DNA of 64,000 bases from Octopus vulgaris (taxonomy: Eukaryota). The stretch spans positions 103,664,001 through 103,728,000 of the forward strand of contig OX597816.1 in the NCBI GenBank assembly GCA_951406725.2. Reading direction: 5' to 3'. Under the pieces are notes generated by a model, which searched no databases, was not told the DNA's origin, and worked only from the letters and a program-made list of their open reading frames with translations. A program made the translations under genes and the position numbers. Shown here piece by piece: positions 13,531-27,340 of the stretch (position 1 is the first letter of the stretch; each line of letters opens with the position of its first letter).

Positions 13531-13589
13531 GCAGAGGCAGTTTTCCTTAGAATGGAACACAGCAGAGGCAGTTTTCCTTAGAATGGAAC
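13531..13589. repeat. Tandem duplication (28-bp unit, 31-bp period)
   Basis: gcagaggcagttttccttagaatggaac occurs twice. Confidence 0.9.
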
Positions 13590-14091
13590 CCTGTTCTAAA
13601 TACTTTTAGAACACCTGCCTCTGCTTCTAATTTATGTCAGCTAGGTAACAAAAGCTATTAACTACTCAAAAAAGAGCTTTCCAAGCATAAAGAGAATCTA
13701 TTTTCCATAAGCTTTTAATGCATATTGTCCTTGTGCTGTTACTGCATATCAAGTCTACTTTCTGTTAGTCTCCTGTGCTCCCACGGTCCCTCTTGTGCAT
13801 CAATACTATACACTGGGTTCACTACATATAATTCCTACATACTCTTTTTTTCTGCATACTGAGCATGCTCATTTCCTTGATGGTACCAGAATCCTGTTTG
13901 CTCTCCTACCTGTTAAAGCTTTAGTCTTTCTTAAGTTTACCTTAAGGCCTCTTGATAGTAGGTTTTGCTTTTAGTCTAAACATATCAAATCATATTAAAT
14001 TAAAGGACATAGTAGTCACATCTGGAATGCTTTTCCAACACACAATCAGTACTGAATAAGGGCTAGAGAAATTTGACTAACTTGGTTGTTG

Positions 14092-14510
14092 GAGTAAAGA
14101 TTATTTGCCAACATAACATAGCATTTCTGGTTTAGCACGAATGTTGCTGTAATTTAGCCCCAGGCAAAATTGTCCCTAGCTGGCTATACGACACGATCGA
14201 TCTGTGTTCTCATATTTTTGAACAAGGGAATCTAGCACCCGAACTCAGCTCAAAACAATATCTGTGTATCATGACTTCCAGGTTATTTCCCTTCATCAGC
14301 ACAGAATAATTGTTCGGCTAGAAGTTTCGAAATATATAGTTTTTAAAGTGACAACTAGTCACTGATCTATAAATTAGAAGATTTATAGGGGCTAAATTAC
14401 AGCAACATTCATCCTAAACCAGGATTGTCACGTTATGTTGGTAAATAATATTTACTCCAAAGTACTGTTGCTGAATATGTCTCATTGTGAGATTTAGAAA
14501 TAATAATTTT
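14092..14510 (-). mobile_element. Penelope-like element remnant (partial inverted pseudo-LTR) with 15-bp target-site duplication
   Basis: ctaacttggttgttg at 14077-14091 and 14511-14525; ~73-bp inverted arms at 14089-14161 and 14388-14460; internal hammerhead-like motif. Confidence 0.65.
14261..14305 (-). ncRNA. Minimal type I hammerhead ribozyme-like motif (one core substitution)
   Basis: Minus strand reads UCUGUG-CUGAUGA-A-GGG-AAAUAA-CCU-G-GAAG-UCAUGA-UA-CACAGA: 6-bp stem I, exact CUGAUGA core, short stem II, GAAG for GAAA, palindromic stem III and UH site. Confidence 0.65.
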
Positions 14511-15514
14511 CTAACTTGGTTGTTGATCATTAGACACACATATTGATATAACTTGCTGAAAGATTAGAATCAGAGCTGGAGCATAAACTATATCCCAAAC
14601 TGTAATATTTTTCAGACAAATGCCAAATAATATTTTTAAATTCCATTCTTCCTCCAAGGATTATGAATCAAAAAATTTATTATTTATGAATTAGTTATGC
14701 AATAATGCGTTTAAAATGTTATGTATATTGTTGCTGATGATTAGCTCTATGCCATCCCTATTTGGGTAGATCTATTACTAAAAGTGTAACAAGAAATGAC
14801 CTTTCTGTCTTTTTCCCAGGAACAGTTCATCCAGGAACCTTCTTTGGCTGGTATAATTATGGTTGAAGTAAATTAAACTACAGCAACTTCATTGATCTTT
14901 TAATTTGAATAGTTGAGATGACATCGTATAATGTCCTTTTTTCCCCAAGTATTATAAAGAAGATAACCCAATAAAACTCTGTTTCCCAACCCATTTGTCA
15001 CTTATTCTTTTTTTCTTTTACTCTTTTTATGGTTTCAGTCATTGGACTGTGGCCACCTCAAATTATTGTCTATTGGTTTTTTGTCTTATGGCAGGAAGTT
15101 GGTCTGTGATTGAGTTTGTAACAGCTGATCTTCCTTGGGTGTGTCCTTGCATGTTTAGATGATCTGGTATCATAGTTGGGAGTTTGTATATCATTTTTTA
15201 AAATGTTTCAGTAAAGATTCCTTTTGTACTTCTGATTTCTTTAGATAAGACTGGTACAATAATGTGCTTTTGTTCATGATTTCAAAGGTGGTGTATTTGT
15301 AAGCTGACAGCATCTGTCAGTTCATGCATTAAAAACCTGTCTAATACTGAAGTTTGGAACATGCCCCTTCAGGATTTTCCATATGTATATCTCTCTCTTT
15401 GGCATTCAAGAGAGCAGAGACAAAGGGCTTTTAGGCATTGTATTTGAAAGAAAAAAAAAGAATATTTGCAGGGGAACAAATAGATAATGAGTCAACAATG
15501 GCGCCTCTGTGAAG

Positions 15515-26336: not shown

Positions 26337-27138
26337 TTTTTTTTTTTTTTTTTTTCTGTTTTCAAATTTGCTTCCATTTCTTGCCGAGTGTCTTCCCGAC
26401 TCCTAGGGCAAAGAAACTCATAGTATACATTGATAGGCCATTAAACTAAACTCAATAGTTCGTTCATTTTTTTTTTTTTTTTAGTTAAATTAAAATACAT
26501 GGGTAGTAGTAGTTCTCACATCGACAATACTCTTCTCAATACGTGTGATGTACCAGTTAAGACAATCTTTTGCACTTCTTGCAGGGATGGTAAGCCAGGG
26601 ATCATTCTCATATAATTTTCGGTCCCCTTCTTGATCATTCCTAGTGCTCCTACGATCACTGGTATTGTAACCGCCTTGAGATGCCACATTTTCTCAATTT
26701 CAATGAGTAGGTCTTTATATTTTCTGAGCTTGTCAAACTCTTTCGCCGAGATATTATGATCACAGGGGATGCTCATGTCGATCAATAAGCAAACTTTATT
26801 GTTTTGGTCTTTCACAACAATATCTGGTTTATTGGCTTTGATGGTTCGGTCTGTATGTACTGGAAAGTCCCACAGAATCGTTACATTTTCTCCTTCAGTT
26901 ACAGCCTCAGGGTGGTGATTATACCACTTGTCGGCAGTTTTGATATTGTAATGCCGACTTATTAGCCAGTGTAGATATTGGCCAACTCTGTCATGTCTTA
27001 ATTTATACTCCACTGGTGCTAAGACTTTACATCCAGAGATTACGTGGTCCACTGTTTCAATCATGTCATTGCAGAATCGGCATTTTGGGTCTGCTCCATT
27101 TTTCATTACATTGGCCTGGTAGTTCCGGGTTAATAGGC

Positions 27139-27141
<3 letters not shown>
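26335..27141 (-). mobile_element. Young 5'-truncated Dong/R4-clade retrotransposon: CCHC knuckle plus restriction-like endonuclease, 3' UTR, poly(A)
   Basis: Uninterrupted ~207-codon ORF end (26516-~27140): CRFC...ETVDHVISGC, RHD, KPDIVV...LLIDMSIP...K.RKYKDL, PVIVGALG. T21 tail at 26335-26355; (TTA)n on both sides. Confidence 0.92.
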
Positions 27142-27214
<73 letters not shown>

Positions 27215-27232
27215 AATAATAATAATTAGTTC

Positions 27233-27340
27233 ACAAGCTGGCGGAATCATTAGCATGCCTGACAAAATGCTTGGCAGCATTTTATTAATCTTAATGTTCT
27301 GACTTCAAATACCAACAGGATCCACTTTACTTTTCATCCT
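27233..27340 (+). mobile_element. SINE family B 5' fragment
   Basis: caagctggcggaatcattagcatgcctgacaaaatgcttgg...gttctgacttcaaat...cttttcatcct. Confidence 0.7.

What the first reader, a model, noticed from the sequence alone, without database searches (positions are those of the whole stretch)
14077..14525. TSD-flanked inverted-repeat element carrying a minimal hammerhead ribozyme (Penelope/retrozyme-like)
Seen: a 15-bp TSD (ctaacttggttgttg) and ~73-bp inverted arms that are not symmetric with the TSD (about 50 extra nt on the right). The minus strand reads UCUGUG-CUGAUGA-AGGGAAAUAACCUG-GAAG-UCAUGA-UA-CACAGA. Known: Penelope-like elements carry minimal type I hammerheads with palindromic stem III (active as dimers) and often insert as partial inverted pseudo-LTRs. 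Inference: this is a ~420-bp non-coding, ribozyme-bearing mobile unit that a TIR-based search would mislabel as a MITE. This copy has GAAG for GAAA and is probably crippled, but relatives may be active.
Basis: partly seen in the sequence, partly recalled or inferred. Interest (0 to 1): 0.7.

Follow-up and report, generated by a model that had tools for sequence, protein, structure and literature searches.

The report
Crippled Penelope-borne hammerhead retrozyme copy
This is one old, mutated copy of a family of thousands of small protein-free jumping elements that carry a predicted self-cutting RNA; it is a known kind of element, and its lopsided inverted ends are likely the scar of a Penelope-type enzyme copying the RNA from both sides of one DNA break.

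Summary
Observation confirmed: 15-bp TSD, 73-bp inverted arms, 50-nt extra right end and the hammerhead string are all there. The element is one copy (about 8% from the family majority) of a non-coding ~350-nt tandem-capable monomer, roughly 5,000 arms genome-wide; a relative's contig lacks it at this site. The family has GAAA (53 of 63 arms) and a palindromic stem III; two sister families show compensatory stem I changes. This copy is GAAG and has an 18-nt deletion before its likely start. Not a MITE: arm lengths vary, TSDs are mostly 12-15 bp, and 102 of 103 two-armed insertions pair one short with one long 3' end (the Penelope 'tail'). No autonomous Penelope partner, cleavage or circular RNA was shown. 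A Tx1-like LINE targets the family's likely start site, which lies behind a U2-like promoter element. Verdict: new family of a known kind (non-LTR retrozyme / non-autonomous Penelope-like element). The scan already reported twin priming and LINE targeting on other DNA of this genome.

The parts
14077..14091 (+). Left copy of the 15-bp target-site duplication; last 3 nt also match the template at the short start site
14092..14383 (-). Long arm: monomer positions ~345/1 to ~301, ending at the short (S) 3' end
14261..14305 (-). Minimal type I hammerhead motif; predicted cut between 14267 and 14266; A15.1 is G here (14275); stem III TCATGA is a CpG-decayed form of the family palindrome TCGCGA
   Evidence: 14275 reads as the family base in nearly all contigs of four organisms
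14325..14326 (-). 18-nt deletion (monomer 53-70) between the TATA-like box and the inferred transcription start / LINE target site
14332..14338 (-). TATA-like box, -31 to -25 of the inferred start in undeleted copies; also present in sister family F2
   Evidence: function inferred
14360..14376 (-). U2-like upstream promoter element (15 of 17 nt equal to the commonest U2 upstream type, ATCAGT at -59 in both)
   Evidence: function inferred
14384..14386 (.). Junction of the two arms; 14365-14386 can also be read as an 8-bp fold-back
14387..14510 (+). Short inverted arm: monomer 230-350, ending at the long (L) 3' end
14461..14510 (+). 50-nt 'tail' between the S and L ends, present on this arm only
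14511..14525 (+). Right copy of the TSD; first 4 nt also match the template at the long start site

Best explanation
The element is a dead copy of a non-coding ~350-nt hammerhead-bearing repeat (non-LTR retrozyme) that was likely inserted by a Penelope-like RT/GIY-YIG protein acting in trans. Shown: monomer, tandem arrays, no ORF, two head-to-head arms of variable length, two fixed 3' ends ~50 nt apart, one per arm, 12-15-bp TSDs, T-T bias just outside both TSD ends, empty site in a relative. Inferred mechanism: (1) an external U2-like promoter lying in the preceding monomer starts RNA near monomer position 71; (2) a dimeric endonuclease nicks both strands 12-15 bp apart; (3) the top-strand nick primes cDNA at one site and the bottom-strand nick at the other (S ~301, L ~354), helped by 1-4 nt of microhomology; (4) both cDNAs stop at random and are joined, mostly over 1-6 shared nt, giving lopsided inverted arms. 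This copy's long arm runs past position 71 into the promoter, so its template would have been a multimer or a circle. The hammerhead is predicted to cut as a dimer through the palindromic stem III, but cut RNA does not appear to be the usual template. This copy is predicted inactive (GAAG; 18-nt deletion before the start).
For: Family and tandem ~350-nt period. End pairing: 61 of 89 insertions picked by the ribozyme pattern are L+S, 0 L+L, 0 S+S (60 L+S by a second method); 41 of 63 picked by a 3' pattern are L+S, 1 L+L, 0 S+S; the rest are one-armed or decayed; binomial p 4e-19 and 1e-11 against free choice. TSD above the 95% null in 65 of 81 L+S insertions, 46 of the 65 being 12-15 bp. TT at +2,+3 beyond the TSD in 65 of 130 ends, background 12%. 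Junction overlaps 1-8 nt in 28 of 52. GAAA in 53 of 63 arms not selected on the ribozyme; stem I 6 of 6 pairs change on both sides across three families. Empty site: one 604-nt contig of organism E joins 14090 to 14542 over 6 nt. Tail at one end and inverted truncated copy are Penelope hallmarks (PMC8557442, passages); two RT start sites and nicking of both strands shown in vitro for an Anolis element (PMC11167929, parts 1-2 of 4). RT+GIY-YIG elements exist in this genome.
Against: No autonomous element shares the monomer: none in 35 GIY-YIG loci by local alignment or by a three-family profile, none in flanks of 250 family loci. Base of stem II departs from the described minimal motif: A.G or A.A (42 and 20 of 63) lies between the G-C stem and the core, effect on cleavage unknown. 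Two S+S insertions occur among 28 query-selected loci (L015/L016, which share a flank at 93%). The microhomology figure (1.9/1.6 nt vs 0.5/0.3) is inflated because the TSD caller extends into matching bases. In vitro the Anolis enzyme showed no strand difference in start site, so strict pairing is not yet explained. Covariation rests on three families and 16 hand-picked intact copies. Core positions are no better conserved than the rest after insertion (96.4% vs 95.7%).
Confidence: 0.85

Rival explanations
1. The copies are only truncated pseudo-LTR ends of an autonomous Penelope-like element, not an independently spreading non-coding unit.
For: Same tail/inversion footprint; most autonomous insertions are 5'-truncated (PMC8557442); only 35 of thousands of GIY-YIG loci were inspected (6136 candidates).
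Against: Arms that pass monomer position 1 continue into the monomer's own 3' end, in arrays of up to 3+ units; no ORF in six frames; shared flanks turned out to be a Tx1-like LINE, not a Penelope ORF.
Confidence: 0.07
2. The Tx1-like LINE that sits in some copies supplies the RT/endonuclease for the family.
For: Physical linkage; LINE 3' fragments lie inside two L+S insertions with outer TSDs (L315, L329).
Against: The LINE cuts one fixed site and duplicates ~18 nt of the monomer (L312, L359), whereas the family inserts at unrelated sites with another TSD length and no tail of A; the LINE fragments are better read as passengers.
Confidence: 0.04
3. A MITE or fold-back DNA transposon with terminal inverted repeats.
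For: Short, non-coding, inverted arms, TSD; the top BLAST hits look alike in size.
Against: Arms asymmetric by a fixed 50 nt, insertion sizes from ~210 to ~1250 bp, junctions everywhere along the monomer, one-armed copies, tandem arrays, TSD 8-21 bp.
Confidence: 0.02
4. Insertions are copied mainly from ribozyme-cut linear monomers.
For: 6 of 94 non-wrapping arms start at 126-130, next to the predicted cut.
Against: Direct test: 17 of 30 examined (of 33 hits) truncated at the cut site, about 14 on inspection, against 11 of 30 (of 41 hits) three bases downstream, so about 15-19 vs 15; many arms run through the site.
Confidence: 0.05

Closest known systems
Metazoan non-LTR retrozymes (Cervera & de la Pena 2020, PMC7229834, passages and section 14 read; Li, Clavereau & Pollet 2026, bioRxiv 10.64898/2026.07.22.740005, parts 1-3 of 5 read, supplements closed)
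   Same: Non-coding tandem-capable monomer of ~350 nt (mussel 350-390 bp), type I hammerhead per unit, low GC, TSD longer than 4 bp, co-occurrence with Penelope-like elements; proposed non-autonomous Penelope derivatives.
   Different: Hammerhead is of the minimal Penelope type with an extra mismatch under stem II; most copies are dispersed two-armed insertions; circular RNA and cleavage not shown; no pLTR-sharing partner found.
Penelope-like elements with GIY-YIG endonuclease (Craig et al. 2021, PMC8557442, passages; Frangieh et al. 2024, PMC11167929, parts 1-2 of 4; Cervera & de la Pena 2014, PMC4209133, parts 1-2 of 4)
   Same: Inverted 5'-truncated copy, tail at one end only, partial tandems, two RT start sites, minimal hammerhead with palindromic stem III and a base between A9 and stem II.
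   Different: No ORF; tail is ~50 nt rather than 30-40; pairing of one short with one long end is almost absolute in these samples.
Target-specific Tx1-clade LINEs: Tx1 in Tx1D, Tx1-Mar, Keno in U2 genes (Kojima 2015, PMC4494074, passages)
   Same: For the LINE found in other copies: CCHC ORF1, APE + RT, fixed site in a multicopy element, tandem re-insertion. Clade assignment is by recalled motifs and Pfam domains, no tree was built.
   Different: Target is the likely start site of hammerhead retrozymes (two families) and of U2 genes. Not present in this window's copy.
MITEs
   Same: Short, non-coding, inverted repeats, TSD.
   Different: No symmetric TIRs, no fixed size, no fixed short TSD.

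Membership tests
Minimal type I hammerhead (Penelope type) | CUGANGA, GAAA and UH core in the family | tested here: met
   Whole core intact in 42 of 63 arms, GAAA in 53 of 63
Minimal type I hammerhead (Penelope type) | GAAA in this copy | tested here: not met
   GAAG at 14278-14275
Minimal type I hammerhead (Penelope type) | Stem I with compensatory change | tested here: met
   6 of 6 pairs, 93.8% of cells paired, slid controls 11-53%; only three independent families
Minimal type I hammerhead (Penelope type) | Palindromic stem III | tested here: met
   TCGCGA and CpG-decay forms; CTCGAG in F2, CCAGGCTGG in F3
Minimal type I hammerhead (Penelope type) | G10.1-C11.1 directly next to G12, one extra base after A9 (PMC4209133) | tested here: not met
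   An additional base also lies on the 3' side (A.G/A.A in F1, C.A in F2)
Minimal type I hammerhead (Penelope type) | Self-cleavage as dimer | not testable with these tools
   Needs transcription in vitro
Non-LTR retrozyme | 150-450-bp monomer, found in head-to-tail tandems, hammerhead in each unit | tested here: met
   350-nt period, L020
Non-LTR retrozyme | No protein coding | tested here: met
   Six-frame translation full of stops
Non-LTR retrozyme | TSD longer than 4 bp | tested here: met
Non-LTR retrozyme | Expressed as circular RNA | tested here: inconclusive
   RNA reads of a relative map on both strands, ~70% run on into unlike sequence, no pile-up of ends; head-to-tail joints cannot be told from genomic tandems
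Penelope-like element (non-autonomous) | Inverted truncated copy and tail at one end only | tested here: met
Penelope-like element (non-autonomous) | 3' end or pLTR shared with an RT+GIY-YIG element | tested here: inconclusive
   None in 35 loci examined of 148 listed, 6136 candidates
Penelope-like element (autonomous) | RT + GIY-YIG ORF | tested here: not met
MITE | Symmetric TIRs, uniform size, fixed short TSD | tested here: not met

The most novel reading that the evidence does not exclude
Retrozymes of this superfamily are snRNA-promoter-driven RNAs copied by a dimeric Penelope enzyme that obligately uses its two start sites one per strand, and a Tx1-like LINE has become a hyperparasite that lands on their +1, borrows the promoter and is itself carried around by the Penelope machinery; the thousands of fossils give in vivo rules (stagger 12-15 bp, symmetric nick motif, strict L+S coupling) for a transposition step not resolved in vitro.
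Probability: 0.5. Interest if true: 0.62.

Novelty: new member of a known kind. Interest (0 to 1): 0.36.

Why it matters
The copy itself is a dead repeat. The family matters because it gives countable in vivo footprints for how Penelope-type enzymes make their inverted, one-tailed insertions, which the papers read call undefined, supports by insertion anatomy the proposal that animal retrozymes ride on Penelope machinery, and offers a 350-nt natural substrate to test it. It also shows why TIR-based annotation would mislabel such repeats.

Tried and rejected
Rfam: no hammerhead model hit. Autonomous partner: GIY-YIG search, 35 loci, local alignment, profile search and flank comparison found none; 17-nt matches inside two ORFs were taken as chance. 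Excess of arms starting at the ribozyme cut: not found. A pile-up of arm starts at 70-96 as proof of a start site: dropped, as it is confounded by selection on the ribozyme, stem I self-complementarity and LINE junctions. U6-type promoter: TATA spacing fits but the U6 upstream element is absent. No RNA holder listed among indexed runs. No tRNA, no host-gene ORF next to the element; host-gene context not established. Lunse et al. 2017 could not be read, so whether the stem II mismatch is described there is unknown; seen only as cited in PMC6765202 (passages). Literature blanks: 'Penelope + twin priming + pLTR' 0 papers; 'octopus + Penelope + hammerhead', 'Tx1 + hammerhead + inserted into + retrozyme' and one search listed nothing on this family or on LINEs targeting retrozymes; subscription journals, Repbase and Dfam were not searchable.

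Full report
Observation. The TSD (14077-14091, 14511-14525), the 73-nt inverted arms, the 50-nt surplus on the right and the minus-strand hammerhead string (14305-14261) are as described. Rfam does not detect the motif. The window lies in a 2.8-Gb, 227-contig, AT- and microsatellite-rich animal genome.

Family. The element has 3139 first-look candidates, of which 40 were scored. A 24-nt 3' pattern has 1696 exact matches, control 0; 47 of 151 arms carry it exactly, giving about 5,400 arms. The unit is a 350-nt monomer found in head-to-tail arrays, without an ORF; 160 long hits average 93% identity to the majority. The window copy differs at 23 of 291 and 10 of 124 positions in its two arms. One contig of organism E joins the flanks across the element (14090 to 14542 over 6 nt, where 17 would be expected for a clean empty site), while contigs of organisms D and A run into it. 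So it is an old insertion.

Ribozyme. In 63 arms from loci not chosen on the ribozyme, 53 have GAAA and 42 the whole core; stem III is TCGCGA or a CpG-decay form. A 34-nt intact-core pattern has 141 exact matches, control 0. Two homologous families turned up: F2 (alignment score 192, best of 200 shuffles 109) and F3. Across 16 chosen intact copies all six stem I pairs change on both sides, and each family has its own palindromic stem III; this is three lineages, not sixteen events. Against the described minimal motif (PMC4209133, parts 1-2 read) there is an extra mismatch under stem II, so activity is predicted, not shown. The window copy has GAAG. Arms do not start preferentially at the predicted cut, in line with the Anolis result that uncut RNA is the main substrate.

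Insertion anatomy. Outer ends fall at two template sites, S (~301) and L (~354). In the two samples blind to architecture, 61 of 89 and 41 of 63 insertions are L+S, one is L+L, none S+S; the others have one arm or a decayed end. Duplicated loci were removed before counting (3, 6 more). Among 28 query-selected loci 20 are L+S and 2 S+S. TSDs pass a mismatched-pair null in 65 of 81 L+S insertions, 46 of them 12-15 bp; TT follows both TSD ends at +2,+3 in 65 of 130 cases against 12% background. [quoted passage not shown] Inference: each nicked strand primes one site and the two cDNAs are joined. A MITE reading fails on size, symmetry and TSD.

Partner. RT+GIY-YIG elements are abundant, including many 781-aa frames, but none of 35 loci shares the monomer. 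Carriage by a Penelope enzyme therefore rests on anatomy and on the proposal of Li et al. 2026 (parts 1-3 read; supplements closed).

LINE and promoter. Shared flanks at monomer 70-88 belong to a LINE with CCHC ORF1, APE and RT; L312 holds a 5.2-kb copy and L359 a truncated copy between two copies of the target. Searching with the LINE 3' UTR alone, 12 of 30 loci end in front of the F1-type hammerhead (one is the query), 15 in front of F3, 1 in another LINE, 2 elsewhere. In L315 and L329 LINE fragments lie inside L+S insertions with 11-13-bp outer TSDs. After these calls I saw earlier scan notes with the same LINE result and a U-snRNA promoter lead. Testing it: 13 of 15 U2 loci have ATCAGT (one with a change) at -60 to -57, F1 has it at -59 of position 71 with 15 of 17 nt equal to the commonest type, and the other 2 U2 loci have the LINE 3' end at +1; the U6 upstream element is absent. 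The promoter would lie outside the transcript, so only copies from multimers or circles regain it. The window copy has it, but with an 18-nt deletion before the start, and carries no LINE.

Expression. Raw RNA reads of a relative (three runs of one study, about 6% read) map to the monomer on both strands, mostly the 3' half, about 70% running on into other sequence, with no pile-up of ends: read-through, neither for nor against circles.

Verdict. A crippled member of a new family of a known kind (retrozymes; PMC7229834, passages and section 14). The strict L+S pairing and the LINE targeting were not in the papers my searches returned, but the scan has reported both on other repeats of this genome. 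Interest 0.36.

Noticed in passing
L312, L359, L306-L311, L315-L361: Tx1-like LINE inserted at monomer 70-88 with an ~18-nt duplication, just upstream of the hammerhead of two retrozyme families, sometimes in tandem; also at +1 of U2 loci L382 and L389.
   Followed up: yes
L315:574-1682, L329:1189-1754 (oriented): LINE 3' fragments enclosed within twin-armed insertions with outer TSDs, likely carried as passengers.
   Followed up: partly
L156-L175; L333-L361: Sister families F2 (often ending in TA microsatellites) and F3, with their own hammerhead stems and homologous 3' ends.
   Followed up: partly
L137:1245-3588 and many loci: Young RT+GIY-YIG element with a 781-aa open frame in many near-identical copies; L140/L141/L149 family has a hammerhead with a U.U pair under stem II.
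   Followed up: partly
L311:3382-5737 (-): 435-aa RT-like frame without a Pfam hit, by recalled motifs possibly a Naiad-type Penelope-like element.
   Followed up: no
window 26516-27304 (-); L314:2-2196: 3' end of another non-LTR retrotransposon ORF ending in a restriction-like endonuclease-type region (label recalled, not tested).
   Followed up: no
window 15009-15060: Short piece of a different, very high-copy repeat (depth).
   Followed up: no
window 13531-13589: Perfect 28-nt direct repeat with 31-nt period.
   Followed up: no
L020:1634-1636 in runs X21-X23: About 40% of reads of organism C carry three adjacent changes at the predicted cut site, perhaps another subfamily.
   Followed up: no
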